DNA of 64,000 nucleotides, taken from NCBI RefSeq assembly GCF_964355755.1, contig NC_092673.1, forward strand, positions 27,525,648-27,589,647. The letters run 5' to 3'. This document shows, piece by piece, positions 19,527 to 43,319 of this stretch (the stretch's first letter is position 1; each line of letters begins with the position of its first letter). The position numbers were made by a program, and so were the translations under genes. The notes beneath the pieces are model-generated. The model saw only the letters and a program-made list of their open reading frames with translations, was not told where the DNA came from and ran no database searches. This DNA is from Antedon mediterranea (taxonomy: Eukaryota > Animalia > Echinodermata).

Positions 19527-21850
19527 TTACATTGATTTGACTTCGTCGATCTCTCTAGGAGATGCAAGACCACCGATGGCATTGAATGTCCACAGAAAAC
19601 ATCCACTTATTCCAAAATAGACATGGTACACTGTCCAAGAACTGGTCGAAAATTGAGTATAGATCATCGCCAGTAATAGAAAGATATTTTGCTGCAAGAA
19701 AAAGATATACAAAGTGTTATTATTATACTGTAGATATGTGATACAAATAGCCATGTTTGTCTTAAATATGTTTTAAAACATTAAAACCATCCACCTCAAT
19801 CATTGGCGATTCATATTTAGATAAATCATCCCTTGTTATTGCATTTATTTTTTTGTTGCGTATGCCATGAGAATGTATTTGGTATAACATTCATTTCATT
19901 TATTCGACCAAACAAAAGGCCATTAAAAACAGATCAGATAAAACAAATGCAACCTTGGTCACTATGGCTTAATCATTCCTTGTTATCATTCTCTTGTTTT
20001 CAAACTTTCTGGAAGAGCACCCATCCAACCCTTTACAGTACATTACAATTACCTCCTCAGTGTATTTGGAAACCCTTGCTATAATGAGTGTCAATCACCA
20101 CTTACCATGATTCGCCCTTGGAACTGTGCTCGTTGATTCTCTTCATCAATAAAACCAGGAGCATAACTGGACACAATAGAAGAACCAATCATGAAAGCAC
20201 CAAATAACATTGAGCTGTACTCCTGTAGCCTGGTGATTTTAATACCAACCTTTAAAGAAAAATATAATAAAAAGTGTAAACATTTTACTAACAATGAGAA
20301 AACGGACAAAACTGCACTAAGTGTTGCTTAATTTAAATACACCTTTTACCACCTAGAAAAACTTAGCAGTTTTGTAATATTGAAATTTTATGGTAAAAAA
20401 ACCCAGCAATTCCGCTTTTGGCCGCTATATGTAAAATGTTGTTGAAATAAAGATAACAAGAACAGTATTCTTGCAAGATGTGAATGGGATCCTTTCAGGT
20501 ACTCGATGGAATGGTACTAGCTAGCATTCCGAAGATATACTTATGTGTTTCTCTGGATTTTATTCATTCATGTACAAGTGGTGTTGTACAGTATGTGTTG
20601 TCCAATCCAAATATGCAATCCTACCAAATAAATAAGTATCACGTTCGTAAACTGAGTACTTAATGTAGTGGTGTAAACCAATATGCTATAAAATTACTTA
20701 AAAAAAACTTATTACCTGAGCAGATAGTAACCATTCAGGAAAAGCGTAGAAGAAAATACCAAAGACTAACGTAGCGAAGAAGTCAATACGTAGATGCAAG
20801 TTGACCTTGGTGTCAAGCTGAGTGTGACCTCCCCATTCACGTGACGTCAACAAGAAATAGATGTAGATTACCGCAAAGGCAACATTGAAGTAAATGAACA
20901 TAAGACTCTACAATGAACAATGAGTATTTATAGTTAGATTATTGCCAATAGAAATCGTAAATTAACAGGCACTATAGTATTATACACTTTCTGAAAATTG
21001 TACAACGTTATTGTAGGGTTATTTCTTGTCCAATTACACCGCTCCTCACAATGTCTGGTTTTCATTAAACCTCAGATTCCTTGAGGGATGTCTATGAAAG
21101 TTAACTGACATAATGTAAGACAAATCTATTTTTATATACAGCACTGTAAAGTAAGTAGGTAACAGTCATTTTGTAAATAGGTCTTAACTCATTTGTTTGT
21201 TTATTTGTCGCTCATTTATATACAATACAAATGCTATATAAAAATGACAGGATGAGAGATCAAGAAGATATCCTTATGATGTACTGTAGGCTCTGGAGCT
21301 TGTTTCCATAGGGGTATGTGTACAGTATGCACTTTTTAAATTTATCATTACATATTGCAAATCTATTTCAATGAACCTTAATACAATCATCATCAAAACT
21401 TACATAATCGGTGGAAGATGAAGAACGAGATCGTTGGAACAATCCACCTGCAGCAACCAAGGTACAAGTCTACAACAACAAATATTAATGCAACATTTAT
21501 TGTTTCAAATTCATTAATATTCAGTTTAAATCTGTTGTACATGTCTGATATAATTATAAGATAGATATTATAAATGCAAAATTTAGTGATGTACTCGAAA
21601 TTTTAACTTGAAGAAAGTAGACCATAAGCATACACAGAATGCCTATAAGACTCAACAGCTGTATAGTCGAGCCATTAATATTAAAGGTCGCTAATTATTA
21701 CATACGTACCACCAAACGCGACACCATCAGAACCACTCGCACCGTAGCATCAGCCGAATGTTGCACCTGGTTAAAAACGTATGCAGATGCAATCAGCACG
21801 CACCCGCTGGCCCGCACCATGTGCACAACTACGTCATCTGGTTTTTTAGT
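19527..21850 (-). CDS. Uncharacterised multi-pass membrane protein; exons 21850-21710, 21469-21404, 20907-20716, 20249-20106, 19691-19527; 5' end unresolved (possible ATG|gtaaac at 22113-22111)
   Basis: Five phase-0 exons (141, 66, 192, 144, 165 nt) with canonical GT/AG join into an open frame: TKKPDDVVVHMVRASGCVLIASAYVF...SRLV / ...SLMFIYFNVAFAVIYIYFLL...HLRIDFFATLVFGIFFYAFPEWLLSAQ / VGIK...MLFGAFMIGSSIVS...GRIM / QNIFLLLAMIYTQF...VKSM*. About 7 hydrophobic segments. Confidence 0.8.
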
Positions 21851-24384
21851 CTGGTAAATAAAAATAAAAAATGACAATTTTTTAAAAGGAATTATAATTT
21901 AAAGTCGAATCATTTATAATTTATAGTATTTATTCATAGAGGATTTATAAGATCCAATTATATTAGTAGTAATTATTAGTTAATTTTTAAAAATCATGAT
22001 TTTGGACGGACAGAAATCTTTTATTGTTTTTGTGGTATTTTTGGTCCTGTGTGACCACTCCTCTAATGTTGGTAAAGAACCACGTTTACGACCGTTCCAG
22101 ATCAGTTTACCATGTTTCATTTTAGTATACTACCCATATTATTAATGAGATAACTACACTTTATAGATATGTAATGGCGTAGTATAATATGCCATTCAAT
22201 GCTTAGTTATTCTCTTCCAGTTTAGCCTAAATGGGTAGCATTCTAAACGAGATAAGATATAGACGATCCTCAGTCAGTTCAGTCAAGCAAGGCAGCAGGT
22301 GGGTGAGTACAGAACAGTAGTTTCGGCTTAACCTACCTCCAGCTTTGACGCTAGCCCAGGAAGCACTATCGCAACTAATCCGAATATTGTACAGCACAAC
22401 ACATCCACTTGCATGAAAAATTGCTTTCCATTGTAAGCAGCATAAAGCAAAATAATGGCGACAAGTACACAAATAAGAGTTAAGAGTAATTCCATTTTAA
22501 TTTTGTAAACAACTCTGGCTTGCCAAACTGCACACGCTACATGGAATTACTTTAGTACCGCCGGTAGTAAACAGGAAGACGCTCTCGCATAGCGTCCCTC
22601 ATTTAAATATTACGTAGCCGGCTTATGAATAATGTATGAGGAATTGTTTAATTATTCATATTACTTGAAAGTCCCTGGATCGCGATATAGACTAAAGTTC
22701 AGTTTTTTTTTATAATACCAGGGATGGACAAAATACAGTAGTTTAAAATATTAGTATAATATTACATATTATTGAAAAAATAAATAAAATGGATACCATT
22801 TATCATAATGGTAGTATGATGGTGCATAGTTACATAGACTCACTTGCCCCGGTCCTTTTTTTTTATATTAGTCCACCAGTCGGCTTTTCGAGGTTTGTCT
22901 GTAAACAAGTTCAAGTAGTATACGCATGAAAGTTCCACACACGTATACTTGAGCAAACGCCAAATTTGCCAAAATATTTATCTTTTAATAATATTAAGTC
23001 AAAACTCAAAACTAGAACCTAGACTACAGTTACACTATGTCAGTGTTATGTAAGTTTTGTACGTGTAGTCCCTAATTATTTGTCCTGTAAAGCGTTACCG
23101 TTTCAATTTTAACTTATCGGCATCATTGATTACTTTTTAACGAGAGCGTCAAATAGCGTCGACTGGATAACAAGTTTATATCGCATGCTGGTGGGGATCA
23201 ATTGCACTGTTTGTAACATTCTAATAATAGTATTCCTACATTTGTATGCTGGTGCTATAAACCAATCAACCACACAACACAGAACAATAAAAATATAGTT
23301 GAAAATGATAAATAGAATTTCATTTGAATGCATTATGCATGGTTCCCACTAGAGACGCAATACAAGGACGTGATGAGAGCTAAACTGTCCTAACTTTAAT
23401 AGAAACTGCGTTAAAAATAGTGTAATGTAATTAGAGTATATACTAGTAACCATTTCTTGAACATAAAAGTGAATTGATCAATCACAAGCGATGGATTATT
23501 CGAACTGTCACTTGTCATTGGTCAACACGCTTGCGTTACGTTTACGTCCTTGCGTTACTTTCTAGTGGGAACCAATCTTTAGGTGTGGCGTTATGTCAAA
23601 ATATACATGATGCAACTTTGGCCCTCTATTTGCGCACCACCAACAACTCGTGAGTCATTTTACGTATAGGTAAACAGACACTTTCCACCCACCAAAAGGT
23701 AACCGAGTGCCTACATTGGATACGATATAATAATATGAATACCAAATGTACAGCAATGTAATGATGACCTAAATCAATTGAACGAGTGGAAATTATTTTA
23801 AATGTAACGGTTTAAAAATAAAAATGTGATGAGAGCTAAACTGTTCAATAGAAAATGCGTGGAAAAGAGTTTAATGTAATTATAGTATACTAGTAACCAT
23901 TTCTTGAACATAATATTATTAATTTAAAGCTTTGTCTTCACTATCAAACTAGTTTAACAAAAACAGTGTTGACAATAACCTGTCTCCTGTGACTATGATT
24001 TATGTTATTTGACAATATTTAGACTTTTATTTGGAGTTTGACTCTTAGTGATAAACAAGGAACTCATATAAAAGGAAAGTGACACTTTTTACTATAGAAA
24101 CCATTGTTAGATCCAAGTGATTTAGACCTTCAATTCCTAGGCCCACGAATAGAAAAAAAGTTGTACCATACGATCCATACAGGGTTAGTTTTTCCTATTT
24201 CATTGCTGGGACCTTAAACGATAGTACCGCGTCTTTTCTGCCTTCTAATCGGCCAACCAGTGCGAGGAGTCGTTGTGCTAGGCAACAGTACTATCTATTG
24301 TCTTCTGTCTATTGAAAACGTACAAATACCACTGCATAGCGAAATGGCTAATGCAACAACAGCAACGCAACTTATAGCAATTAA

Positions 24385-24520
24385 AAAGAAAAAGGTTTAT
24401 GCCGTTGCTGTCGGGAAACAACCAGGCATCTATTTATCCTGGCTGGAATGCCATCACGGAGCTTTATTCCAATCATTTTTTAGTGTCGAAAAAGCCAAAA
24501 CATATCTCAGCGAAAATGGG
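24385..24520 (+). pseudogene. Relic of an RNase H1 N-terminal hybrid-binding (Cauli_VI-type) domain, probably from a retroelement ORF1
   Basis: KKVYAVAVGKQPGIYLSWLEC...GALFQSFFSVEKAKTYL matches the YAVxxGrxxGiyxxWxeC...gaxfkkFxxxeeAxxyl pattern, with an internal deletion. No further exons are evident. Confidence 0.55.
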
Positions 24521-25500: not shown

Positions 25501-28500
25501 CTATTTTTCTCCCAATTTAAGGACGCAGTCGTAAAGAATATCGCGTAGCAATAGATATCGTTCGCCTGTCTCCAGAAGGCTGATGGTTGGTGTATTCGTC
25601 ACAAATCCGTAGCCTAACTTTAATTCGGGATTTCCAAAGGCTTCCTGGCCACCTGCCCCGCTGTGTCCAAAAGCTTTACCAATCTTTAGTGAAATGAAAA
25701 CCAAAGCAATGTTATTTCAATAACGCAATTATCCAAAAGTATATATATTGTGATGTTTTTGTCTTCATATGGTTTCCGTTCTTAGTAACAGCTTGTGTGA
25801 CCTGTATATTGTTTAAGATTCAAGATTCAAGATTCAGCTTTATTTCGTCCACATAGGAAAATATTTTGAGTGGTTTTCACAATTATAGTACAAAAGTATA
25901 TAAAACGTTTCAAATAAAAATAATTAATTATAATATTTAAAAACACTATATTTTATGTACAAGAAATGATCGGATCCCAGAGCTATGTGGCAAGAAATGC
26001 GGAGGAGGTCTAGGTTTATATATAAACAGAAATTGGTGCACAAATATTACTGTAAAAAAATCAATCTGTGAGAGAAATATCGAGCTTTTATGCATATCGC
26101 TTAGACCGTACTACCTTTCTAGGGAGTTTAATCAAATCCATGTGATCCTGATTTATGTTCCACCCGACGCAAATGCGGATGAAGCCGCTCGTATTGTCGG
26201 AGATACTGTGAGTAATATCAGAGGCGTCCCCTTTAAGCTTGGATCCCACTAGAGAGGTAATGCAAGGTGGTGTGACCAATCAAAAACGATTATTATTTGA
26301 ATTGTGGCATGTCATTGGTCAACTCAGTGCGCTGCGTCTCTAGTGTGAACCACGCTTTAAGCTTGGTTCCCACTAGGTCGCATGACAAAACGAAAGTACG
26401 GTAAGCGTGCTGCAATTATTATGACCGATCACGAAATGGATCGAGTAATTAAACCAATCATGACGCATTTGATCTTTCGTTTCGTTTCGTTTCGTATCCA
26501 TCACGTCGTGATTGGTCAATTTAATTGCGTTTAGCGTACGTCCTTTGCGTTGTCATGCGTCCAAATGCGAACAAGTAAATATAATAAGTGTTGCTTTATT
26601 TTCACTGACGAGAAGGTTTCAAACACATTTACCGGAATTTTGCTTATAGCCACGCCAGGTCCCCACTCCACATCTACCATGATTACTTTGTCCATGCCCT
26701 TCGTAACGACTGTATTCAATTGTTTCACTGATTTCTCGGACATGATCCTCTTCCCGTTCAATTCCCCTCCGTTTGCCAAGATGCCATATAATTTAGCTAG
26801 ACCCTCCGCCGTAGCAACACCAAACGCAGACGGAACTTCAACAATTCTGTTCTCGGGATCGTTTAGTGCGTATGCCTGAAATGTATAACCTGATAGTTTA
26901 ATACTACTTTAAGTTATCTCCCTACCCCGTACTTCACCCTGTCTGCCTCTCTCTCCCCTCTCCCCAGCTGACACTCAGCTGTCAAAATTCCCCAAACTTA
27001 CATTTGACATCATTGGTCCCATATTCTTCATAATCTTATTCCACAAAGTGTCTTCTCCACGAAAAATCGACCCTAATATGGTCGATCGCATCAATGGAGT
27101 ACTGATTACTGTCAACATTTGTCTGGCAGTGTATTTGGTTTCCTCCATTCGCGCTGCTCTGTAAAATAGCTCTTTGCGAAGTCCAAAATGGATGTCAATT
27201 CCTTAAAATAAAAAGACATTTGTTCACTACTATATATGCTGCACATTCAAAGGTAACAGCATAATAAAGGCAGGACAATTCAAGTTTGAAAGAAATTAAA
27301 CTTGGCTGAAAAGATACTCACCAAATGGTACCTCCAATTCATCATGAACAAACTGACCAAGAGTTCTATGTTTCGGGTCAACTTTCCTTAAAAGAACGCC
27401 ACAGAAGGACGCCATAGTTATAGCGTGGTAGCCATGTCCAGTACCTATCTCCCATTGTGGCACAGAGTCTGCCAGAACATCAGCCAGACGATCGTGATCT
27501 CGAAACAAATCCCAAGAAAGCGTTTCATTTGGAAATGGAATCCCTGCCTATATGCCATTAATAAAAGGAAACGTCTTATACAACATTCTATGTACATCAG
27601 TGTATTTGAGACCCTATTAGTATTACTGTTGCAGAAATTTGGATTCGTGTTGTGAATCATGATATCGTAACAGGAATTCCGTATGTTACGAAAAGAATTA
27701 GGACCACATGTGTCATTAAACTTGGCATTATAGATATAACATATACCGTATAAACCCAGTAATTGTAGTTCGAGGACACCATTTTAACCCGGACTGGCGC
27801 TGGAACCAGCCAGGTTGGGAGGTTGTCAAAAATCTGTCAAATTCAGAAGAGATATCGTTGAACATACGTACCTGATGGCTGATGAGCATCTCAACAGTCA
27901 CATCTTGTTTTCCATGCTTACCAAACTCCGGCCAGTACTTTACAACCTTATCACTGTACTTTAGTAGACCTCGATCGACTAACATGGCGACGGCTATAGC
28001 TGCCACACCCTTACCGCTCGAGTAAATGTTAGGGAGTGTGTCTGGTTTCCATGGTCGATGGGCCTCCTTGTCAGCATAGCCACCCCAGATGTCGACCACC
28101 TTCTTACCTTTATGGTACGCCGCAAAAGCTGATCCACCATCAGACGGTTCTATGCCATTTGAGTAATGTTCCCTGCAAAATTATTTGTTATACTTTGAAT
28201 ATTACTGGATAGTACGCTACCAGCAATTTCTAGGCTATAATAATGGTGGGCATGTTAATCAATGTATGAATGGCAATATAAACGCAATATTGTTCTGTCC
28301 TGGAAAAATTGCAAATTAAAGTACTGGGCTAAACTGTTTTGTATAGGAGCTATCGGATTTCAAATGATCTATATTGATTGTATTATGTTTCGGACTGATA
28401 AGGCGTACTAACGCTGTTATATATACAGAAACGTAACCCAAACAACCCGAATAATATCGAGAGTATAGGCCTACTCACCTGAATGCTTCAAAAACTCTTT

Positions 28501-28621
28501 CGAAGCCTGGTTCCACTCGGCCGTCAAATATAACTGGCAACTTCTCCTTCCATAGTCCTGGTAGATACAAGACAACTATGGCAGTAACAGCTACGAGTAA
28601 GGCCTGCTTTAAGATCGACAT
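25501..28621 (-). CDS. Beta-lactamase-fold serine hydrolase (class C/EstB/LovD-like), paralog A, ~431 aa; exons 28621-28479, 28172-27872, 27547-27322, 27201-27002, 26875-26633, 25683-25501
   Basis: Hydrophobic N-terminus MSILKQALLVAVTAIVVLYLP. Motifs: VVDIWGGYAD, SxxK (YSSGKG), YWPEFGKHGK, LISHQAG, HGYHA (catalytic Tyr) and FGHSG. Exon lengths 143+301+226+200+243+183 = 1296 nt, in frame. Confidence 0.92.
25975..26225 (+). mobile_element. Fragment of a Rex1-like LINE APE endonuclease in the last intron of hydrolase A
   Basis: + strand reads GKKCGGGLGLYINRNWCTNI...LLCISLRPYYLSREFNQIHVILIYVPP. This is homologous to GGGGLCLYINEKYC...IRPYYLPREFSHVINVMVYIP in the 11405-14443 ORF. Confidence 0.8.
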
Positions 28622-29231
28622 ACTGCCTTGCTATAAATGCTGTGTGCAATGTTTAACAAGTTGTGCAATTATGTTATTCAACGTGGCGATGATATTATAT
28701 TTAAACTATTACTTGTTTAAACAATGATTAGGCCTAAGGTTTATTTTTACTTGACCTGTTGTACTGTGTGTTTACCTTAAGGGTTTACACAGACGGGTTC
28801 TTTCAAATAATTCAGTCATGTTATAACGACTGTATTAATGTATTGACTCTCCTTTAAAGATATATTGAACTATGTTAATTTTTGTTGTTGAATATTTTAA
28901 TGCAGAATTTGAAATACAGCATAAAGGTATCTCCATGAATACATAAAATAAAAGTAAATGCCAATTGAATATTTTATTGCAAACAGTTTTTTATACCTTG
29001 ATCTTTTAAAAACGATTATCGAAAACAATTATTAAATACATTTAATGTCATTAAAGTGGAGAAGAAGACATTCGGCGCAGAATTTACACATTATGACGTC
29101 ATAGTACTAGTAGCATTTTGCACCAGTGGAAAGATGTTTGGTTCAACCATGGACCTATAAATTAGATGTATAGGTCCATGGTTGAACACACAGTAGATAA
29201 AAGAGACCGTGGAATATGATTATGTTTACTC

Positions 29232-32035
29232 CTATTTTTCTCCCAATTTTCTGACACAGTCGTAAAGTATGTCGCGTAGCAATAGATATCGTTCGCCGTC
29301 TTCCGTAAGGCTAATGGTCGGTGTATTCGTCACATATCCGTAACCTAGTTTTAATTCGAGATTTCCGAAGCCTTCTTGGCCACCTACTCCGCTGTGTCCA
29401 AACGCTTTACCAATCTGTGAAATTGAAACCAAATCATGTTATTTCAAATATATATTGTAATCAACATTCATTTTTTTAAATTATTTAAACCAATATAAAG
29501 CCTTATATAAATATACTCAATGCCAAGTATTTAGTATATTACTATTATATACTATAGGCCTATTGCTAGATATACGAATATTCTTCAAAGTGCAGTTTGA
29601 TTTACCGGAGTTTTACTGATAATCACACCATGTCCCAACTCAACATCTATCATAACAACTTTGTCCATGCCCTTAGTAACGACTGTATTCAACTGTTTAA
29701 CTGCTTTCTCGGACATAATCCTCTTCCCGTTCAATTCCCCTCCGTTGACCAAGATGCTGTATAGTTTAGCTAGGGCCTCGGCTGTGCCAACACCAAACGC
29801 TGACGGAACTTCAACAATTCTGTTCTCGGGATCATTTAATTTGTATGGCTGAAATTATATAAAAAGTTTCATCAGATATTTTCATATCAAAACTTATGTT
29901 TAGTAACTCAGGAAAAGTTAGGAAACGGTATCCATAGGAAATGCATGATTCGCATGTATGACACGCCCGGGAAGACATAATAATATCCGGTGTCGAGACC
30001 GCTTGTGTCGAGTTTACTCATAGCCTGTATCGAGTTACCACCGCTCGTTTTGAGTTTATGAGTTTACCCACCGCTCGTGTCATGTCACCCACCAACGCTA
30101 ATGTCAATATACCTCCCGCTCCACTCGCTCATGTATAGGCACTCACTCAAACTTACATTCATCAACAGTTGTTCCGTATTCTTAAGCATTTTGTCATATA
30201 ATGTATCGCTTCCGCCAAACAATGATTTAAAAATGTAGGAGCGCATCAATGGATTATTAATTATTACAGATAACATTTGACTGGTAGTGTATTTGTCTTC
30301 CTCCATCCGTGTCGCTCTATAAAATAGCTCTTTGCGAAGTCCAAAATGGATGTCAATTCCTTAAAATATAAAAATGTTTACTGTTATTTTTTAAAACAAA
30401 CAATATTTTGATATCCTGTTTACCAGCGCACGTGCTACCAAAACCCTGTCCACACTGCAGAAAATATTTCATGCGTCATGAGGGTAAAACAATATATTAA
30501 GACAGTGAGTACAGTATATGTACAACTGCCGGGTTGTTATAATGGTTTGTTGAAATGAGAATGAGGATTTTTAGAGACGTTTATTTTGTCGAGAAAAGAG
30601 ATAATTACCAAATGGTACTTCCAATTCATCGTGAACAAACTGTCCAAGAGTTCTATGTTTCGGGTCAACTTTCCTTAAAAGAACGCCACAGAAAGAGGCC
30701 ATCGTCAAAGCGTGGTAGCCATGTCCAGTACCTATCTCCCATTGTGGCACAGAGTCTGCCAGAACATCAGCCAGGCGATCATGATCTCGAAACAAATCCC
30801 AAGAAAGCGATTCATTTGGAAAAGGAATGCCGGCCTACGTCATCAATTAAAAGAAGAAAACATTATCTTATGAATATTGATAACGTTTTTATGTATATCT
30901 ACTCTAGGCAGTTACTCATTAATGTCAGATATACCATTAGTAATAGGCAGCTAGCCATTTTTACTTAAAGTCTATGGCTGGTTTACTTCGGGTGGTCAAT
31001 GCAGGAATGTAGGATTGTAGGAATAGATTTGCCTGTATAATAATCATTGAGAGGGGGCACAATTCAACTTGGCGGCAGTGCCGAGAGTATTGGAACCAGG
31101 TAGATCCAGGTATCGGTCGTGCCTACGTACCTGATGGCTGAGCAGCGTTTCAACAGTCACATCTTGTTTGCCATGCTTACCAAACTCCGGCCAGTACTTT
31201 ACAACCTTATCACTGTACTTTAGCAGACCTCGATCGACTAACATGGCGACGGCTATAGCTGCCACACCCTTACCGCTCGAGTAAATGTTATGGAGTATGT
31301 CTGGTTTCCATGGTCGATGGGCCTCCTTGTCAGCATAGCCACCCCAGATGTCAACCACCTTTTTACCTTTATGGTACGCCGCAAAAGCTGAGCCACCATC
31401 AGACGGTTCTATGCCATTTCTGTAATGCTCTCTAAACAAAATGTGTAAGGCTTACTACCAAATAAACAATAGGCTCATATTGTATAAGCTTATGCCATCT
31501 ATGATATTCATGACTGTCATCATTTTGCTGTAGGCCTAAATAAAGTTTTTTGACATTGAATATCTGTGTTTTTTGCTCCAAAGCTCTGTCTACACTATTC
31601 AGTTTGACAAAAAAAAAATGTATGTGTCCAAATAATGGTAGTGATACCCAAATATGGTAGTGATATGACATGATTGTAGTAGACAGAGCTTTACACGCGC
31701 GCGAAGTATACCTTATTTAAACCATATCCTGTATGTAGATAATACGCTCAGTATATTAGTGTATAGGAGCTGTTTTCAATAGGATTATAGTAGTTGACCT
31801 TTATTGTATTGTATATTGCTACTGTAGGCTGCATTATAACGCTGTGTATATTTCAACACTATAGCATATCTATACATGAATACAGTACTCACTTGAATGC
31901 TTCAAATACTCTTTCGAAGCCTGGTTCCACTCGACCGTCAAATATAACTGGCAACTTCTCCTTCCATAGTCCTGGTAGATACAAGACAGCTATGGCAGTA
32001 ACAGCTACGACTAAGGCCTGCTTTAGGATCGACAT
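29232..32035 (-). CDS. Beta-lactamase-fold serine hydrolase, paralog B, ~432 aa; exons 32035-31893, 31431-31131, 30834-30609, 30359-30157, 29848-29606, 29414-29232
   Basis: Same exon structure (143/301/226/203/243/183 nt) and motifs (YSSGKG, HGYHA, FGHSG) as paralog A; a direct tandem duplicate. Confidence 0.92.
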
Positions 32036-33440
32036 ACTGCCTTGCTATAAATGCTGTGTAATCAATATTACTCAAAGTCTAGTCAGATATTTTTATCACG
32101 ACCTCGGGTAAACACTGGTTGAATACCCTGGGACACGTAGGCTTTTAAGCTTGGTTCCCACGGACACAAAACGCAATTAGGACGTAAGCGGTCCAAACAA
32201 TTTGAGCAATCACGACGTGGTGGATCGTCTGAACTGCCGCTTATGATTTATGGCGTAATTACTTTGTGAACTAAGTTGAGACAATTAATGCAATATACTC
32301 ACGTTATAACTAAATTATTAATTTATTGACTCTCACTTAATGAACAGCAATTACAATATTGTAGTGCGGTAAAATTAAAAATGTATTGTGTTAAAGAATC
32401 CCAAACTTTAATAAATTTGCTTGCTTAAACTTGCTTATAATGTACATAAATAGATATCCCATTAAAAATATAATCTTAATAATTAAAATAGTAACATTTC
32501 TTCTACTTAGTCCTAAACTATTTAAATTTACTTTTCATACATTCCTTTTCAACTATTTGTATGCCCGCATATTATGGTGATTTACTATTAAAACCTTTTA
32601 TTGTAATCACGTATTTATCATTGTTGATTATGAAATTGTTTACTACTATCACTGTGTAATTTTTTTGATATTTGGAAGAACATTGTGGCCTAATTTCTGA
32701 AACTCTTTGTAAACCGATAATCATAATTATTAAGGTATACTTTATTCATTCAAATGAAAAAAAGCCAAATGCTTGTCGCACAGTGAAGACACACAGCAAT
32801 AGGGAAACAAACAAAATCTATACTATTTAACTATTTTGTTACTACCTTCTAACCCGTGCTCCTGTATAATATGACTGGTATATTTACTTTACCAAAGCTT
32901 AAGACTGAAAGAACAAAGACATTCATCTTGGGAGATTTCCACCATTGGAATGTTCCCATCTCAATTGTATACATTCTATAAAATATTCTAACTAACTTTT
33001 TTTTAAATCAAATTGTTATTAATTTCTATATCAAAATTAGGCCTAATTTAAAAAAATGTTTTTGTGTAACTTTTTTATCTTAATTCTTTATCTTTTTTTA
33101 ATAACTCTTTTATATAGTGTAATATTCAATCTCAATTATTTATTGCAATTATTCCGAATTTTTAACCTTTATTTAAATATTAGCAATAGTTAACAACAGG
33201 TGATCTTTTAAATTGCTCATATTTACCAATATGAATTCTGTAAATACAACAACTAGCCGTTAATCGGGAAGTTCCAGATTTAAGACAATATGCAATGACT
33301 TTCACGCATTTCCAAAAGAACGTCTCTATTGCCTACCCATTATATGAATCCTACGGCGCAAAAATTTGAAAAATAGATAACAAGATTCGTTCTTATCTTA
33401 TTTTAACATTGATTTATGAGTAAATTTACGGAATTCAAAT

Positions 33441-36400
33441 TTAGGTTTCACTCAATTTCAATGGCAACACAGCTTCCTTATTCAATGCCTTTTCCAGCAA
33501 AAGCTTCGTTGTAATGCCACCAAGGATATCCAACTGTGACACGACAACGTTAAGCTCTTTACTAGCCCACGTCACCATTTCGACTGCCATCAGCGAATCG
33601 ACACCGTAGTTGATCATTGGTTGGTTGACGTCAATGGTTTCAGGCTCAACACAGAGCAATTTACCCATCTTTTGTTTAACGTTCTTTTCGATGTCTTCTA
33701 GGCTTAGAGAGCAATCGGTTTTAGCGACCTGTTGGCCCGTTGCCAGATGTACGAATTTCATGCTTTCAGGGTATACAAACATTTGCATCACATTCCAGTC
33801 CTGAAAAGAAAAATGGTAGACAATATCAACTAAAGTTCCAAGATACAGTGCGTTGTATCATATTTAAGTTGCTGATACACGCGTTATACTAGGTTCTAGG
33901 ACACCTACCCCCTAGACAGTTACCCCCCGGATATTTACCACCCGGACAACTACCCCCTTAGGACAACTACCCCCTTAGGACAACTACCCCCTTAGGACAA
34001 CTACCCCCTTAGGACAACAACCCCCCGGACAACTACCCCCCGGACAACTACCCCCTTAGGATAACTACCCCTCGGATAACTACCCCCCGGTCAACTACCC
34101 CCCGGTCAACTACCCCCCCCCCAATCCAAAAGTAGACAAACGGTTTCTGTAAAAATTAAATCATCTGTTTTTAACGGGTGTTTCGAAACTAGAGACCCGA
34201 GACCTGACACGAGACCCAATACGAAAAGGGAGACCTATATTGGGTCTCCCTTTTCGTATATTAGGGTCTCCCTTTTCGTATAGTGTGGTCTCTCTTTTCG
34301 TATAGTGGGGTCTCCCTTTTCGTATATTTGGGTCTCCCTTTTCGTATATTTAGGTCTCCCTTTTCGTATATTAGGGTCTCTCTTTTCGTATAGTGGGGTC
34401 TCCCTTTTCGTACGTGGGTCTCTCTTTTCGTATATTTAGGTCTCCCTTTTCGTATTGGGTCTCGGGTCTCTGGTCTCGGGTCTCTAGTTTCGAAACACCC
34501 GTTTTTAACCGATTATTCTGTTTAACAGCACGCTAGACCCTAGATGTGCTAGATTTAAAGTACCGTATTTATTGACAAAACGGCCTGGGCTGTTTATTGT
34601 TTAGGTGGTTTTTAGGTGGACATTTATTGGAAGAAAGTTGTTTATTCAATGGGAGGGGGTATAATCTAATGGAAATAGACGCCGATTATTAATTCCATAT
34701 GATGTTTCATGGGAGTGACATGATCACCGTTTATTTGAGGGGAATTTATTTAAAGATCGCCGTTTATTCGGTGAGTGAACATTGAGGTCAAATATCAAAA
34801 GTGATATTATTCTTCAAGTGTACAAAAATACAAAATGACAAATTTGAGACAAAAATTAATTCTTTTAAGACCAGTGGTTATCGAAGCATTGTCCTGACGC
34901 AAAAATTATTATTATTATTAGCGAACCCAGTTTTTACAGTAAATACAGGGAGTACTATATAATACGTTCGACTATCCTATGATCATGTGTGACAATCTTC
35001 AGTTTATACCAGGCTATATTTATGTTCAATCTTTTACTTTTGTTTACAATAATGAATAGTAATTCGTCAAAGTAACGAATTAAAATATAGTTATTAATTC
35101 CTATTATACGCTGTTGCAGAGTCAGGTTGTTGAATGGTCTGGGTGGTAGTTGTCCGTCCGGGATGTAGTTGTTCTAAAGGGATAGTTTTCTGGGTGGTAG
35201 TTGTCCAGGGGTTAGTTGTCCTACGGAGGTAGTTGTCCTAAAAGATTATTTGCCCTCGGAGTATTTTCCAGGAAGTAGTTGTCCTACGGGGAGTATTGTG
35301 TCAGAGGTAGTTGTCCGGGGGGTAATTGTCCGGGGGGTAATTGTTCCTAGGGGGTAATTGTCCGGGGGGTAGTTGTCCGGGGGGTAGTTGTCCTAAGGGG
35401 GTTGTTGTCCTAAGGGGGTAGTTGTCCGGGGGGTATTTGTCCGGGGGGTAGTTGTCCTAAAGGGGTAGTTGTCCTAAGGGGGTAGTGGTCCAGGTGGTGG
35501 TTGTCCGGGGGGTAGTTTTCCGGGTGGTAAATGTCCAGGGGGTGAATATCCGGATACGGTTATACTAGCATCCTAGCAATACAACGCGTTATCGGAAAAG
35601 ATACACAGTGAGAATCCATTGCGTTGTCTTTTGTTGTTATAATTATGTTTAGCATTCGGTCAACGAAATGTCACTTTTTACTCTTTCTTTTACTCTCATT
35701 TTGAAAAAAAGGAGTGCTTTCCGAACACTTGCCATTTCTCTCTGTTTTCTTAATAATATTTTGCCAAATATAATAAATTTGAACATGATATTTGCAATGT
35801 AGTATACTATTTAAAATAATGACCACGTACCTGATTTGCAAGATAAACAGCGGCCGGTTGATTAGATGATTGCAGAAGATTCGACAATCCTTCTAAGAAC
35901 TCATCGACGTGTAGTGACAGGTGACCTCTCATGTTCAGAGCCTGTGCAACACCGGATTTATCTTCTAAATATCCCGCTCCTCTTACGGGACTCAACTGTA
36001 CACTGAGTGCTGGTAGACCATCGTCTCTTCTTTTTGCAGCAAGAGCATCCAGGAAGTTGTTTGCTGCTATGTACATAGACTGTGATGAATTGCCACACAT
36101 AGTAGTCACAGACGATAGTAAGAAGAATATTTCAAGATTCATGTCTTTTGTGACATCGTGCAAGTGCTGGGCACTACCAGCCTTTGATGACAGAATGTTG
36201 TCAATTTCTGAATTGGTCAAGCTCTGGAATGTCTCCTCCATAATAAATCCAGCCAAGTGAAACACACCTTTAATCTCTGGTGCATGTTCACTCTGTAATC
36301 CCTTCATCAAGGCTAGGACATTATCCTTTATGCTTAAATCTAATGAGTACTTGTATACATTGACACCTTTGGCTTCGAGGTATTTTAGGGTCCGTCTACC

Positions 36401-39400
36401 AGACGAATTTCGACAACCACGGCGAGAAACTAAAGCGATATGCTTCGCTCCTTTATTCGCCAACCATCTAGCCATTGCTTGTCCAATGCCGCCAAATCCA
36501 CCAGTGACGATGTACGTTACGTTTTGTTTGAACAGCTTGGTTGTTGGGTTTATTTTGGGAGGTTGTATCTCATCCGGGATATTGAATACTACTTTACCAA
36601 TATGAGATCCTTTGGCGGTTCTCGCAAACACCTCTTGGTATTCTTCAATCGACGAGACTTCAAATCTGATTGGTTTGAAGATTCCATTTTGGAATTTGTT
36701 TGACACTTCAGTCAAAAGCTTACTTGCTCGTGGTTTGTCTAGATCAATCATGATGTCAATTTGACTTGATATAAATGTCTTATTCTCAAGTAGCATCTGC
36801 ATCTGGAGATTTGAATTCTGTAGAATGTCACGCTTTCCGATCTCACAGAACCTTCCCCCAGGAGCAAGGCATTCGATACCTTTGACCAAGAGGTCTCCAC
36901 TTAGCGAGTTCAACACAACGTCAACACCGCGACCGCTTGTCCACTGCATGATATCATTGTAAAACTCATCTGATCTTGAGTCAGATACATACCTGATGCC
37001 TAATTTTTCTTTAAGGTATTCTCGTTTCTTAACAGATCCAGCTGTACATATGATGTTAGCCTTGGCCATTCTGGCAACCTGTATTGCACTTAGTCCTACC
37101 CCACCACAGGCTGAATGTATTAGGACGGTTTCTCCTGGCTGCAGATTAGCACGTTCTATTAAACTGTGATACGAGGTAGAAAATATTATTCCTATACCTG
37201 AACTCTCATCCCAGGTTAAATTGGATGGCTTTTTTACCACAAGTTGAGCATCACATATTGAATGAGAAGCGAAACAATGATCCCCAAAACCAATAACTTC
37301 ATCACCTTCTTTAAGGTTTACTACACCTTTACCAACTTTCTCTACAATGCCACTTAGTTCCAGACCGAACTGCTTCTCTTCAGTCTTTATCAACGCATTA
37401 AGCATACCCAGTGCCATCATCACATCTTTGAAGTTCAGAGCTGCACTCTTGATTCTAACCAGTACTTTTCCATCATCAGGAATCATTTCATTCAGGTATG
37501 AAACGCCTAAGTCGTCTAAAGAAGCTAGCGCCGAAGATGAACTTTGGGTTAACTGCCAGTACTTCTTATTCGTTGATACGCTTTCCATATTGATGTTTGT
37601 GGGGATTATTCTAGGATAGAAGTATGCACCATCTCGAATAGCGATTTCTCTTTCTTTGTGATCATATGACATGATGTATTTTGCAGCAAGTTCAGCCTGT
37701 GCGCGCGAAGAACTTTTACTCTCAATGTCAATGGAATAAACTGGAGCATTGAACTGGTTTGTGATAGCCCGAACAACGCCAATGGCTTTGCTCCCTTCTA
37801 TGTTTTGTGATCTATTATTCGAATCAGTGGTTATAACCCATATTTTCTGGAAAGCTTCTGACGAATTATCAACTTGTTGAAAGAGCTTGAAGAGATCATG
37901 ACAGTTACTATCATTTGAGTTCCACAAGTATATTACTTCGGTTTTGTCTGTTTCTGTATTATTGATGAGAATACCTTTGTTGATATCTGTTAATGGTTGA
38001 ATTATAACTTCTGCACTAAGACATTTGCTTAGACAGTCAGCAACAACATTTGTTTTTCTGTCAGTGAAAATCAAATAGCGCTGACATTCTGTGTTTTGAT
38101 CAATTGTTTTGATGCCTTTATGTACTGTTAAAGAACGTTTTCGCCCAAGAAACATGCTATGGAAAAATTCTCCAGTAGTTGTTTCTGATTCTACGTCAGC
38201 AAAGCCGTTGTTTACAAGCGCTTGTACCCATCCTTCTTTAGACAACCAGCAGGTGTTGGTTCTGAAGTCTTGATAGACCCAGCATAACTCAAGAGACCCG
38301 AATACAAGTTCAGCTACATAATGTGTATTTGTCGCCTCGTACATTAAGAACAAACCATCATCAGTCAGTAAATCTCGAATTCTACCAAGAGCAATATTGA
38401 CATCAACAACTGAATGAATTGTGTCCATACACACGATAAAGTCTACCGTACCAGGAACAAATCCCTGACTAGCTAGGTCCTTTTCTATGTCAAGTTGCTG
38501 ATACTTAACAAATGGATATTCCTCCAATGCGCTCTCTGCATGCATGAAAAATGTGACACTCAAATCTGTGAATATATACTCAACTCGCTTTTCTTCTCCA
38601 TACTTCTTTAGAGGTTCGAGTATGTATTGTGCAAGACCACCCATACGTCCACCAATCTCCAGAACACGCACTACTGATTTTTCTTTCAGTGCCTTTTGAA
38701 CAGCTCTGTCAATTATATCTGTACCTGCTTTGTAGAACAATCTTGTAGTAAGTGAATCCATGAAATAGCTCGGGAGACATTCTGGTCTGAAGAGAAGCTT
38801 CACAGCACTTCCTGGCTCTATAAGAGTTCTGGTGAAATTATCTCCAAGGTTTCTTATCATTCCAATTTCATGTTCAAGTTCTGGCACAGCTTTATAGAGC
38901 TCATCGAGGTTTCTATGAAGATCTTTGAATGGAATTGTTTTAACAGATGTATCGGCCGCTATGGCTCTCAGACGCTCTATATACAACGGGTGCACGTTGT
39001 AAGTTGAACTGTCGACCGTTTTAAGACCATGACGAATGTAAGACGCGCATATTGATCTAATTAAAGGCGCGAACTTTTCAGCCTTTCCTATGCCGTATGT
39101 TTCATCAGTGTGTATTCTTCTTTGAATAATATCATCGAACACCTCACAAACTACAGACGTGTTTCCCATACATGCAGATGAAGTTTGCCATATCGTCTTA
39201 TACAGGCATTCACCTAAATCGACATCTGAACGCGTCCCGTTGATGTTTTGGCATCTAACACCCGTAAGTTTTACCAATGTACAACCGTCACTAGTCGATA
39301 ATATGATATCACCAACCAAGAGCTTACTATCGCATTCTGTAACATTAGCATATGCCATTAGTTGTTGACCTGGTGGTATTTTAGGAACAAACATCTGAAG

Positions 39401-42400
39401 TTTGTCAATTGCAACTGGGAGATAAAGCGTTGTTGTCTCTCCAATGGCACTGAGAAGAAGCTGAAAGCAGCCATCTAGCTGTGTAGTCTGTATACGTTGA
39501 TTGTTATTTTCAGCAGGGCACAGGTACGCAAATCCTTCACCGTCTCCAGCCATCACCTCTTCAATCACCTGGAACGCAGTTCCGTAATTCAGACCAACTG
39601 AACTCATTCTACTGTAAAATTCATCTTGTGTTACGCTGGTGGTACATCTTTTCAATATATTCTCCTTATCAATTTTAACAGGTTTCGTTTCTTTGTTATT
39701 CGTAGTTAACAGCTCACAGCTACTGTAAACAGTGTTGTTCGAAGTGACTTCAACGTAGCTACCATTTTTGACACACGTCAAATTAAGACCAACAGCATTG
39801 TTACTGCTATCAGTGTTGTCTGGCCAAGTACATACTCGCTTAAAGCTCGCATTTGCCACAGATGGAATTTGATAGTCGGCAAAATATGATTGCAAAGCGT
39901 ACTCTACATATCCTGCCGCCGGAAAAATAACGTTGTCTTGGATTACATGATCAGCCAAGAAAGGAAATACCGCGAATGTTATGTTTCCGTTTTGGCCTTT
40001 GTATGTCCGGTCATCCTGACCAAGACGTCTGTTGCGGCGCTCTTCGCCCTCAATCCAAAACGAATTGTGTTGCCATTGATATTTTGGAATATCAACCCAT
40101 ATTGCAGCATCACGGGTAAAATTATCCCAGTTAATATCTATGCCACATGTGTACAATTGACCAAGTGCGAATAGGTTAGTCACTTTGTCATTTTGTTCTC
40201 TCTGTCCGGTTGACAATGTAATAAGGTCAGTCTTACCTTGCCCTTTACCAATCTGTTTGATAGACGATGCAAGTGTTACTGAAGCACTCAGTTCTATGAA
40301 GATATTTGCGTTGGTGTTACGAAGAACGCCTTCTATGGCCGGGCAGAATTTGACTCTGTTTCGTATATTACTCCACCAGTAGTCTGTGTTAAAATCACCG
40401 TCATACACTTCACCTGTCAATGTTGAAAACATAGGAACAGATCTTACTCCGGCTGGTGTGGAAACAGCACCTTTCATTGATGTTCGAAATGGTTTTTCCA
40501 TTGGATCCATTATTGGTGTATGGAAAGCGCACTGTACTCTAAGCTTCTTTGATTTGACATTGACGTCGTTGTCAATACTATTGATACTTTCTTTTGATCC
40601 TGCTAAAGTTAATGAACCAGGAGCATTTTCGGCTGCAATGTACAGATTCTCATATTTGTTGCACATTTTTTCAGCTTCATCAAGTGTAAGCCTGACAGCC
40701 GCCATGCTTCCGCAACCTTTCAACATAGATTGGTTTTTACTTCGGTGATAGACAACTCGTACTGCCTCAGTTAGCGTCAGGCCACCACATGCATATGCGG
40801 CAGCGATCTCACCCAGACTGTGTCCAACAACCACATCAGGTTTAACACCCCAGTAGCACCACAAGTCAAATAGACCGACTTGCAGAAACAATAATGCCGG
40901 CTGGCTTATTACCATGTCATTAAAGTTTTCTTCAGTTAGTAAGTTTTTCTGACCATTAAACAGACCTTTATCGTTTAATAGAGACCACCCACTAATCTTC
41001 TGGAAAATCGTGTCACACTTTTTGATGGACTCTCTAAATATTGGTTCGGTCTGGTACAATTTCCTTCCCATATTGATCCACTGTTGCCCTTGCCCTGGAA
41101 ATACGAAACATATTTTATGTTCTGGGTTGTATGTCGTGCCAGTTGAGATACCGTCTCCACTACCATTAGTAATAAACTGCTCTAGTCTTTCTTGAAACTG
41201 CGATCCAGAACTTGCAGATATTGCCACTCGACATTCGTGGTGCTTCCTGTGAGTTGCCTGCCATCCCACTACACGAAGAGCATCTTCTTCATTGTCAAAC
41301 TCTTTCCACTTAATTGCTAAATCTGTAAGGGCAGCAGACGACTTGGCCGAGAGGGGTATCAACAGCGGCTTACCTTCTTTTGTGCTTGAACCAAATTCCC
41401 ATCCGACGGGATCTAACAAAGCATTATGTTTTTGTTTTGGCGCCTCTTGGAAAATTGCATGCGCAAGAGCGCCCGCGAATCCAAAGCTATTTACTCCGAT
41501 AATGGACTTTTCATCATTTGGCAAACGCTCCATTTGAGTTTGAACTTCTAATTTCCAATCTTTTAAGTTGATCTTGGGATTCGGCTTGTTGTAGTTGATG
41601 GTCGGTACAAGGTAGCCGTTATGCAGCATTAGTGCTGCCTTTATTGTAGCAGCGGCTCCGGCAGCACATTCACTGTGACCAAAGTTGCTCTTAACTGATC
41701 CGATCTTAATTGGTGCATCACGATTTGGTCCAAAGGATTTGCCAATAGCTTCTGCTTCAATGGGATCTCCAACGGGTGTTCCTGTGCCATGTGCTTCAAG
41801 ATAGTTTACATCAGCCATATTCACATCAAATGTTTTGTACGTCTCTTCAATGATTCGCTGCTGATCAGGCATGGATGGCATAGTAATACTCTGACTGTAA
41901 CCGTTAGATCCTATTGATGTTCCCATAATAGTCGCATAAATATGATCGTTGTCTTTCATAGCCTGATCCAATGTCTTAAGAATACACGTCCCAAAACCTT
42001 CGCCTCTAACGTAACCCTTGGCTGTATCAGAGAAGGGACAACATTTACCATCTGGCGAGAGCACTCCAAGAGCGCTGAAGCCAACAGTAGTGTCAGGGAG
42101 AATCAATGCGTTGACTCCACCCAGGACCGCAACTTTACATTCGTTATCTCTAAGCGATTTACACGCAAGGTGCATGGCAGTTATCGATGACGCGCAAGCG
42201 GTATCTACGGCGTAGCTTGGCCCCTTCAGATTGAACACGTATGAAATCCTGTTTGCTGCGACACTGTGCGCTGTGCCCGTCAATGTGTAAGCGTTTACCG
42301 TATTGGCATGGATATCGAGAGTTTGAATTGGGTAATCCATTAACCCAATTCCAACGAACACACCGCACGAGTCTAGGTTATCCGGTATGATTCCGGCATC

Positions 42401-43054
42401 TTCAAAGGCTTCGTGGGTAACCTCTAGTAAAATTCTCTGCTGGGGATCCATCGATGATGCCTCTTTTGGTGAAATTTTGAAGAATGTGTTATCGAACTTG
42501 TCGATTCCATCTACAAATCCACTTTTTGGTGATACCATCTTTCCTGGCTTCGTCTGGTCATCATCATGGAATTTTTCAATTGACCAACGTTCTGGCGGAA
42601 CATCAGTGATACAATCCTTACCACTACAGAGAACCTGCCAGAAATCTTCTGTCGAGGTTACTCCGCCAGGCATTCGACATCCTAGTAATAAAGTCATTTA
42701 ATAATACTCACTGAGGTTTTAAAATTCTAAAATATTGCATCTACTGTATTTTGTTTATTTGCCTATCACTAAAGCAACGCAATGACGTGGGTGGAGCTGC
42801 GCAAGTTAGTTGACCAATCATAAACGACAGTTCGGGAGAGCCATCGTTTTGTGATTATCTCCATGGACATGCACTCTTTCTAACGGTTCTTATGACATTA
42901 AGACCACACTCATCATAAAATTGATTTAGATTTTGCAGGGAGGAAATGAAATGTGGAACTTTTCTATGGACCTTTTATTTATTCTATAATAACAACAAAT
43001 GAACTTACCTATGCCAACAATAGCAATTGGACACTTCTTCGAGTTTTCATTCAT
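33441..43054 (-). CDS. Iterative type I polyketide synthase, ~2418 aa, KS-AT-DH-cMT-ER-KR-ACP, no TE; resembles echinoderm pigment PKS (SpPks1-type). Exons 43054-43009, 42681-35831, 33800-33441
   Basis: Exon 1 MNENSKKCPIAIVGIG|gtaagt joins CRMPGG. Motifs: KS DTACASS, EAHGTGT, KSNFGHSE; AT GHSLG, AFH; DH LADHVIQDNVIFPAAGY and LDGCFQ; cMT VLEIGGRMGG, YIFTDLS; ER LIHSACGGVG; KR TGGFGGIG, YIAAN; ACP YGVDSL followed by a stop. Exon lengths 46+6851+360 = 7257 nt. Confidence 0.95.
33892..35558. mobile_element. Non-autonomous foldback/MULE-like DNA transposon in PKS intron 2
   Basis: Arms are tandem GGACAACTACCCCC(TTA) units at ~33900-34120 and their reverse complement at ~35140-35556. TSD GTTATACTA(G) at 33883-33891 and 35559-35567. 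Confidence 0.85.
34176..34500. mobile_element. Nested MITE (Mutator-like, 9-bp TSD) with internal ~23-bp tandem repeats
   Basis: TIRs GGGTGTTTCGAAACTAGAGACCCGAGAC / reverse complement. TSD GTTTTTAAC (34167-34175, 34501-34509). Internal (GGGTCTCCCTTTTCGTATA..)n. Confidence 0.88.
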
Positions 43055-43319
43055 GATGTATACTATCAATTAGTTATGAAATTTAGGCCTATGGAAAAGG
43101 AATCACATAGTTATGATACTATTACTAATAACAAGTCAAATTAGTTTAAAAAGAAGTAAAATTAAAAATGTTCTGTGCGACATGATGGGGCAGAAAGTTG
43201 TTCTACTCAAAATTGTTCACGTAGATGTAAATCCGATAAAAGATAGGTAAATTTTTTAACTTCGCAAATGCATTTGATACCACACATCATCAAATTCGTC
43301 TTCAAAAACTACATCATTA

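What the first reader, a model, noticed from the sequence alone, without database searches (positions are those of the whole stretch)
19527..43054. Candidate animal polyketide gene cluster: TE-less PKS with two tandem LovD/EstB-like serine hydrolases and a membrane protein
Seen: four intact, intron-containing genes on the same strand within ~24 kb. The PKS stop (33441) is only ~1.4 kb from the ATG of hydrolase B (32035), and the PKS ends at its ACP with no thioesterase or reductase release domain. Established: in fungal lovastatin biosynthesis, LovF (KS-AT-DH-MT-ER-KR-ACP, no TE) is off-loaded by LovD, an SxxK beta-lactamase-fold acyltransferase. Fungal aromatic PKSs also use stand-alone hydrolases for release or chain-shortening (e.g. 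Ayg1p, a different fold). Echinoderm SpPks1 has this same domain order and makes a naphthalene pigment precursor. Inference: the hydrolases may release, cyclise, deacetylate or transacylate the PKS product, and the membrane protein may scaffold or export it. That would be a clustered pigment/defence-metabolite pathway in an animal genome, where such clusters are rarely described. Caveat: both hydrolases have an N-terminal signal/anchor, so they could act after release in the ER or pigment vesicle rather than on the cytosolic ACP.
Basis: partly seen in the sequence, partly recalled or inferred. Interest (0 to 1): 0.88.

Follow-up and report, generated by a model that had tools for sequence, protein, structure and literature searches.

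The report
Feather star polyketide-esterase gene bundle
In a feather star, a polyketide-building gene with no built-in release domain sits head-to-tail with two duplicated esterase genes, a pairing likely kept in a second feather star; the esterases likely tailor its product, which would give a first handle on pigment-pathway steps that have been described as unclustered in echinoderms.

Summary
Four intact spliced genes lie on the minus strand. The PKS and both hydrolases equal named Antedon mediterranea (crinoid) records letter for letter. The PKS ends at its ACP, 1,405 nt before hydrolase B.

One correction: this PKS is not of the SpPks1/CrPKS non-reducing kind. It keeps its DH, ER and KR catalytic motifs, which those enzymes lost independently.

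The hydrolases are family VIII SxxK esterases of an inherited animal family, not LovD orthologues. The PKS-linked copies form a crinoid-only clade with remodelled conserved positions.

In Anneissia japonica, orthologous hydrolases share a 565,497-bp record length with four PKS genes, including the likely CrPKS. Three sea stars show same-chromosome linkage; urchins, a brittle star and two hemichordates do not. The membrane protein is a DUF8292-like protein of unknown function.

Best reading (0.40): the PKS likely reduces its first units, then cyclises and self-releases an alkyl-bearing aromatic pigment precursor, which the esterases tailor. Rivals: plain conserved neighbourhood (0.32) and LovD-like off-loading from the ACP (0.20). 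No biochemistry or cell-type expression data were available.

The parts
33441..43054 (-). Iterative type I PKS, KS-AT-DH-(MT)-ER-KR-ACP, no thioesterase, 2418 aa; exons 43054-43009, 42681-35831, 33800-33441. Motifs: GLMD, C178/H313/H351, S637, DH H927/D1085, ER glycines 1875-1878, KR K2182/S2206/Y2219/N2223, ACP S2368
   Evidence: equals XP_071948884; contig joined across intron 2 in run X1
29232..32035 (-). Hydrolase B, SxxK family VIII esterase with N-terminal anchor, 432 aa; exons 32035-31893, 31431-31131, 30834-30609, 30359-30157, 29848-29606, 29414-29232
   Evidence: equals XP_071946880; joints across introns 2 and 5 in X1
25501..28621 (-). Hydrolase A, tandem duplicate of B, 431 aa; exons 28621-28479, 28172-27872, 27547-27322, 27201-27002, 26875-26633, 25683-25501; differs from B mainly in the helical cap (residues about 240-296, 31 of 56 identical)
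   Evidence: equals XP_071948023; joint across intron 2 in X1
19527..22495 (-). DUF8292-like membrane protein, 288 aa, one N-terminal helix plus two related four-helix repeats; exons 22495-22337, 21850-21710, 21469-21404, 20907-20716, 20249-20106, 19691-19527; membership of the pathway untested
   Evidence: PF26941 clusters, score 0.92-0.95; repeat, hhalign 98.7%
32036..33440 (-). PKS 3' UTR and hydrolase B upstream region; the X1 contig of the PKS ends at 32383 (ATTAAA at 32412), and a short block shared by both hydrolase genes starts about 40 nt further on (likely promoter; inferred)
28622..29231 (-). Hydrolase B 3' UTR and hydrolase A upstream region, 610 nt in all; an X1 contig ends at 28930

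Best explanation
[quoted passage not shown] Shown: anatomy, motifs, no TE, splicing in one likely RNA run, the orthology groups. Inferred: programmed partial reduction (by analogy to mollusc EcPKS1/2), a pigment product (GLMD motif, crinoid propyl and pentyl side chains), and the esterase step (acyl transfer to, or hydrolysis from, a side chain or hydroxyl). The two copies would differ in substrate through their diverged caps. The membrane protein is not needed for this reading.
For: DH/ER/KR motifs are kept, and those domains are as conserved to the Anneissia orthologue XP_033103366 (77/84/78%) as the AT (78%); against the likely CrPKS they fall to 50/57/46%. The KS has the crinoid GLMD motif that PMC11414698 ties to 14-carbon products. 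That paper found butyryl-CoA a minor starter for CrPKS and leaves side-chain removal and anthraquinone origin open. Crinoid pigments carry propyl, pentyl and O-acetyl groups (PMC6356231, PMC8400451). TE-less reducing EcPKS enzymes reduce early units, then extend unreduced and self-release (PMC10515154). Linkage: Anneissia records with two hydrolases and four PKSs share the length 565,497 bp; 3 of 3 sea stars hold both gene types on one record. The linked hydrolases are a crinoid-only clade (100/100) with 29 of 136 conserved columns changed against 13 of 136 in the unlinked paralogue (Fisher p 0.011). Both copies are under purifying selection (dN/dS 0.24). Transcript end and next likely promoter lie within about 40-70 nt.
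Against: No product, substrate or cell-type expression was tested. 7 of 12 species with both gene types on record show no shared record: four urchins, Amphiura, Ptychodera, Glandiceps. The two crinoid PKS orthologues are still 80% identical, so plain microsynteny can explain that linkage; the three sea stars are not independent, share only a 13-48 Mb record, and their linked PKS clade is not shown to be orthologous (deep nodes open). The overall rate test of linked against unlinked hydrolase was significant for only 1 of 11 outgroups. The cap is more diverged at silent sites too (dS 0.96 against 0.25), which fits gene conversion elsewhere rather than selection on the cap. Intact motifs do not show which cycles are reduced; the product could be a fully reduced lipid. 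35 of 41 named animal PKS rows keep the same motifs, many from animals not known to me for such pigments.
Confidence: 0.4

Rival explanations
1. Conserved neighbourhood without a shared pathway: the esterases are ordinary membrane-anchored lipid or xenobiotic esterases that happen to sit and duplicate beside a PKS array.
For: The family is inherited vertically and follows the species tree, with tandem copies on one record in urchins and brittle star where no PKS shares that record. 7 of 12 species show no shared record. CrPKS and EcPKS work without partners. PMC11414698 calls echinoderm pigment genes unclustered, and PMC12833800 reports conserved bundles with no known joint pathway. No oxidase, FMO or sulfotransferase gene was found in the window (82 upstream ORFs scanned).
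Against: Very tight head-to-tail packing next to about 21 kb in which no gene was found; remodelled conserved columns only in the linked clade; same-record occurrence in five species of two classes (window).
Confidence: 0.32
2. LovD-like off-loading: the PKS makes a reduced acyl chain that cannot leave by ring closure; an esterase facing the cytosol takes it from the ACP onto S99 and passes it to water or to an acceptor such as a pigment hydroxyl.
For: All three reductive motifs are kept and there is no TE, the LovF situation (LovF-LovD pairing: PMC11026467 passage; mechanism recalled). The fold includes LovD, SurE and a macrolactin acyltransferase. N-glycosylation sequons are not enriched in the animal family (28 against 38.8 expected, 23 proteins), so a cytosolic face is not excluded. 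The likely CrPKS shares its record with three reducing paralogues, which would allow hand-off.
Against: LovD ranks 15th by fold (Z 29.9, rmsd 3.3, 325 aligned, 14% identity), far below family VIII carboxylesterases (Z 46-51). The anchor's orientation is undetermined. Most reducing TE-less relatives in acorn worms and brittle star have no hydrolase on their record, so the family can work without a linked one.
Confidence: 0.2
3. The genes do work together, but on a non-pigment lipid: a fully reduced, perhaps methyl-branched, acyl product for a membrane lipid, signal or defence compound.
For: 35 of 41 named animal relatives, including amphioxus, acorn worm, coral, annelid and snail rows, keep all reductive motifs. 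The MT region still passes Pfam cut-offs. The best NCBIfam match of the hydrolases is mycobacterial LipL, below its cut-off.
Against: The KS carries the crinoid GLMD motif and nests with the likely CrPKS in one crinoid clade (100/100).
Confidence: 0.08

Closest known systems
CrPKS (Anneissia japonica) and SpPks1 (sea urchin), PMC11414698
   Same: Same domain order, no TE; GLMD motif shared with CrPKS; one crinoid clade with the likely CrPKS record XP_033103353 (identified by the paper's numbering, L130 and no Tyr at 2209), 59% identity.
   Different: The window PKS keeps DH His, ER glycines and KR Tyr; CrPKS and urchin Pks1 lost them, and the data reject those two as one clade (AU p 4.6e-10). 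Its orthologue is XP_033103366, for which I found no paper.
Sacoglossan EcPKS1/EcPKS2 (PMC10515154)
   Same: Animal, TE-less, reducing domains used in early cycles, self-release; PKS genes adjacent in the genome.
   Different: A different lineage (FAS-like) that uses methylmalonate; tailoring genes are reported as not clustered with them. Not aligned here.
Fungal LovF-LovD pair (lovastatin)
   Same: TE-less reducing PKS beside an SxxK beta-lactamase-fold enzyme.
   Different: The hydrolases are 14% identical to LovD in the structural alignment, belong with bacterial family VIII esterases, carry a membrane anchor and come from an old animal family. ACP contact is untested.
Family VIII carboxylesterases (5GMX, 5GKV, 7Y3Z, 8J5V, 3ZYT) and animal 'beta-lactamase domain-containing protein 2-like'
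   Same: Fold (TM 0.79 to 5GMX), S-x-x-K and Tyr188.
   Different: N-terminal anchor; the crinoid linked clade reads S-S-G-K where 19 of 20 relatives have Thr at the third place, and has an altered C-terminal loop.
Animal biosynthetic gene bundles (sponge oro, coral terpene, mollusc NRPS; PMC12833800)
   Same: Native animal genes with introns gathered in one region and kept across related species.
   Different: Those were validated biochemically; this one is not. It would be a PKS-centred case in echinoderms, whose pigment genes PMC11414698 calls unclustered.

Membership tests
Echinoderm SpPks1-like PKS family | KS-AT-DH-MT-ER-KR-ACP order without TE, inside the echinoderm/acorn-worm clade | tested here: met
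Non-reducing pigment PKS (SpPks1, CrPKS) | KR catalytic Tyr absent (PMC11414698 Fig. 2 legend) | tested here: not met
   Y2219 with K2182, S2206, N2223 present; DH H927 and ER glycines present
Crinoid-type PKS | GLMD motif in the KS | tested here: met
   L129 in GLMD
Crinoid-type PKS | Makes an aromatic pigment precursor | not testable with these tools
   needs enzyme assay
Family VIII SxxK esterase | Beta-lactamase fold with S-x-x-K and catalytic Tyr | tested here: met
   S99/K102/Y188; PF00144; model pLDDT 93.6; Z 46-51 to solved esterases
LovD-type off-loading acyltransferase | Closer to LovD than to general esterases | tested here: not met
   LovD Z 29.9, rmsd 3.3, 325 aligned, 14% identity, rank 15; esterases Z 46-51, 29-34%
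LovD-type off-loading acyltransferase | Takes the acyl chain from the ACP | not testable with these tools
LovD-type off-loading acyltransferase | Catalytic domain in the cytosol | tested here: inconclusive
   anchor in 22 of 22 animal rows, flanking charges balanced, sequons not enriched
Animal biosynthetic gene bundle | Linkage kept across related species | tested here: inconclusive
   same record length in 5 of 12 species (window included), not in 7; distances unknown outside the window; no control with neutral neighbours
Animal biosynthetic gene bundle | Co-expression in the producing cell type | not testable with these tools
   one likely RNA run of contigs shows spliced PKS and hydrolases only
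Animal biosynthetic gene bundle | Genes act in one pathway | not testable with these tools
   needs biochemistry
DUF8292 (PF26941) | Match to the family | tested here: inconclusive
   Atlas clusters with 92-99% PF26941 score 0.92-0.95, 211-225 of 256 features shared; the local Pfam copy gave no such hit, so no HMM score

The most novel reading that the evidence does not exclude
Crinoids carry a real pigment gene cluster: an array of reducing PKS paralogues and one non-reducing paralogue (CrPKS) with dedicated SxxK esterases. The reducing enzymes supply the saturated propyl and pentyl side chains, and the esterases off-load or transfer acyl chains. This would be a first trans-acting release or tailoring partner for an animal TE-less PKS, and the linkage might predate the crinoid/sea-star split.
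Probability: 0.22. Interest if true: 0.85.

Novelty: new variant of a known kind. Interest (0 to 1): 0.58.

Why it matters
PMC11414698 says the steps after the echinoderm PKS cannot be found because the genes are not clustered, and that side-chain removal and anthraquinone origin are open. PMC10515154 and PMC10764717 say release from TE-less animal PKS-type enzymes is mostly unknown. This locus names two testable candidate enzymes. It also shows that the two characterised non-reducing echinoderm PKSs are exceptions (5 of 41 named rows) that lost reduction independently, so the reducing majority, this gene included, is an unexplored source of animal polyketides. If the linkage proves incidental, that second point still stands.

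Tried and rejected
No whole genome was held, so synteny rests on equal record lengths, not coordinates. Accession closeness was rejected as a distance measure: the adjacent Antedon genes are numbered ...46880...48023 and ...48884.

Metagenome scans found no animal locus: one search found none; one search gave 78 loci at 28-47% identity, 1 of 78 with a distant SxxK ORF; not used.

No run is on record as RNA; contig depth was not used to rank genes.

Co-expression in print: searches gave nothing relevant. No 'lactamase' match in the supplements held for PMC11574130, PMC7455242 and PMC10396339 or in the main text of the last two. The held files are small and seem to lack full marker tables, so files I could not see may bear on this.

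Membrane protein: exon-level Pfam, NCBIfam and Atlas scans gave nothing. PDB sequence searches gave 0 matches and 3 at E above 3. The best fold match, chain O of the Chlamydomonas Ycf2/Orf2971-FtsHi motor (TM 0.50; Z 10.8, rmsd 3.6, 155 aligned), is under the bar for helical bundles and gives no function. A recalled likeness to TP53I11 got only E 0.047 in 2 of 16 rows.

Horizontal transfer from fungi was rejected: the hydrolase tree follows animal groups. Positive selection on the cap was not shown (dN/dS 0.34). The earlier-findings index returned nothing. The SpPks1 paper and Wolkenstein 2015 are not held.
Full report
Observation. The four genes are real and intact, all on the minus strand, with GT-AG introns. 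The PKS (2418 aa) and hydrolases B (432 aa) and A (431 aa) equal named RefSeq proteins of the feather star Antedon mediterranea letter for letter. The membrane protein (288 aa) equals a stored protein. Pfam gives KS-AT-DH-MT-ER-KR-ACP with nothing behind the ACP. The PKS stop lies 1,405 nt before the ATG of B, and the stop of B lies 610 nt before the ATG of A.

Expression and packing. One run that the tool guesses to be RNA has contigs joined across PKS intron 2, A intron 2 and B introns 2 and 5. One further contig is shared out between the two paralogues and is not informative. In that run the PKS contig ends at 32383, and a short block shared by both hydrolase genes begins about 40 nt further on, so the genes are packed very tightly (promoter role inferred). 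Upstream of the PKS, 82 of 84 ORFs of 52 aa or more were scanned and gave only two reverse-transcriptase fragments; small exons could be missed.

What the PKS is. I aligned 49 relatives out of the 120 listed plus cluster members. The window PKS keeps the DH His and Asp, the ER glycines and the KR Lys/Ser/Tyr/Asn (the motif roles are recalled, except the KR Tyr, which PMC11414698 names). After dropping 8 unnamed rows, 35 of 41 keep all three motifs. Five lost them: four urchin Pks1 and Anneissia XP_033103353. One model lacks the DH segment. XP_033103353 fits the numbering that PMC11414698 gives for CrPKS (L130, no Tyr at 2209); I did not see the paper's sequence. On KS-AT alone (23 rows), it is sister to a reducing Anneissia paralogue (100/98), and the data reject one clade with urchin Pks1 (AU p 4.6e-10; the group was chosen by motif after a first tree had been seen). 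So reduction was likely lost twice. The window PKS is orthologous to XP_033103366, and its DH, ER and KR are as conserved as its AT. It is therefore a reducing-type enzyme whose product is not known, not a copy of SpPks1.

Does it need a release enzyme? Not by default. Purified CrPKS makes YWA1 alone (PMC11414698, parts 1-3 of 5 read). TE-less EcPKS enzymes reduce early units, extend unreduced and leave by pyrone formation (PMC10515154, passages). PMC10764717 says off-loading is unknown for most TE-less enzymes of that kind (passages). Crinoid pigments carry propyl, pentyl, hydroxyalkyl and O-acetyl groups (PMC6356231, PMC8400451, passages), and CrPKS uses butyryl-CoA only as a minor starter. 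A paralogue with the GLMD motif and live reductive domains is a natural source of such side chains; this is inference.

What the hydrolases are. The model (pLDDT 93.6) matches bacterial family VIII carboxylesterases best (TM 0.79 to 5GMX; Z 46-51). LovD is a distant member of the fold (Z 29.9, rmsd 3.3, 325 aligned, 14% identity). The family is inherited in animals, and its tree follows the main groups (26 rows). The N-terminal anchor is in 22 of 22 animal rows, and its orientation is open. Antedon has a further paralogue on another chromosome-sized record. The linked copies form a crinoid-only clade (100/100) that changed 29 of 136 family-conserved columns, against 13 of 136 in the unlinked paralogue (p 0.011), including the third place of the SxxK motif. 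The whole-protein rate test was significant for only 1 of 11 outgroups. A and B are under purifying selection (dN/dS 0.24) and differ mainly in the cap (31 of 56 identical), where silent sites are also more diverged.

Linkage in other species. No genome could be laid, so I compared record lengths. In Anneissia japonica, two hydrolase models (XP_033103387, -388) and four PKS models (XP_033103353, -361, -364, -366) all have the length 565,497 bp; three more PKS genes lie on a 626,149-bp record. One hydrolase model fuses the end of one copy to exons of the next, so the copies are tandem there too. Asterias amurensis, A. rubens and Patiria miniata each hold hydrolases and two or three reducing PKS genes on one record of 17.1, 12.9 and 48.5 Mb. 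Four urchins, Amphiura, Ptychodera and Glandiceps do not. That is 5 of 12 species, the window included. The full-length searches list only their best 120 hits, so paralogues can be missing; no Acanthaster or amphioxus hydrolase was seen. The weight is modest: two comatulids can keep neighbours anyway, the sea stars count about once, sharing a chromosome has roughly a one-in-ten chance (chromosome number recalled), and their linked PKS clade is not shown orthologous.

Membrane protein. It has an N-terminal helix and two related four-helix halves (hhalign 98.7%; model pLDDT 87.4). It resembles DUF8292 clusters of molluscs and nematodes and has no informative solved relative. Its position in other genomes could not be checked. 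Scaffold or exporter roles have no support beyond proximity.

Mechanism and odds. Best (0.40): programmed partial reduction and self-release by the PKS, then esterase tailoring of the free product at a membrane. Rivals: incidental neighbourhood (0.32), LovD-like off-loading or acyl transfer from the ACP (0.20), joint work on a non-pigment lipid (0.08). Anatomy, motifs, trees and record sharing are shown; every chemical step is inferred.

Novelty. Animal gene bundles are a known kind (PMC12833800, part 1 of 5 and passages). PMC11414698 states that echinoderm pigment genes are not clustered. Ten full-text searches listed no paper on a PKS-hydrolase linkage in echinoderms or on the reducing crinoid paralogues. 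The library lacks most subscription papers, the SpPks1 paper included, and I did not see the supplement of PMC11414698. PMC11026467, PMC7455242 and PMC10396339 were seen as passages, PMC11574130 as a search listing and supplement search. Verdict: new variant of a known kind, function unproven, interest 0.58.

Noticed in passing
window about 1600-15600, + strand: 3' part of a laminin-like gene (laminin B and EGF domains) converging on the bundle; a useful neutral control for synteny.
   Followed up: partly
window 11411-14443, - strand: Open 1011-codon LINE-type endonuclease/reverse transcriptase frame inside a laminin intron.
   Followed up: partly
P0068 (XP_071948025): A second Antedon PKS, also with all reductive motifs, lies on a record of the same length (36,192,472 bp) but not in the window. 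No non-reducing CrPKS-type gene of Antedon was among the 120 listed hits.
   Followed up: partly
P0070, P0204 and relatives: The likely CrPKS and urchin Pks1 lost DH, ER and KR motifs independently; most echinoderm, acorn-worm and amphioxus relatives keep them.
   Followed up: yes
P0005 (XP_033103388): This Anneissia gene model looks like a fusion of two tandem hydrolase copies.
   Followed up: partly
window 27872-28621 against 31131-32035: Exons 1-2 of the two hydrolases have dS about 0.12, against 0.42-0.68 for exons 4-6, which suggests gene conversion of the 5' exons.
   Followed up: partly
window 33896-35553: PKS intron 2 holds nested inverted and tandem repeats (two G/C-rich arrays facing each other around a second element), high-copy in the genome by contig depth.
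   Followed up: no
window 733-1553; 43316-43720; 47161-47851 with 50384-51080; 63497-64000: A 48-nt tandem array, a 400-nt palindromic element just upstream of the PKS, a 690-nt inverted pair at 96% identity, and a 95-nt array.
   Followed up: no
window 24218-24595, + strand: Short frame with an RNase H1 N-terminal domain hit, in a high-copy stretch between hydrolase A and the membrane gene; likely a transposon remnant.
   Followed up: no
P0345 model: Both fold searches put chain O of the Chlamydomonas Ycf2/Orf2971-FtsHi motor first (TM 0.50, Z 10.8), and unnamed bacterial clusters match at TM 0.70.
   Followed up: no
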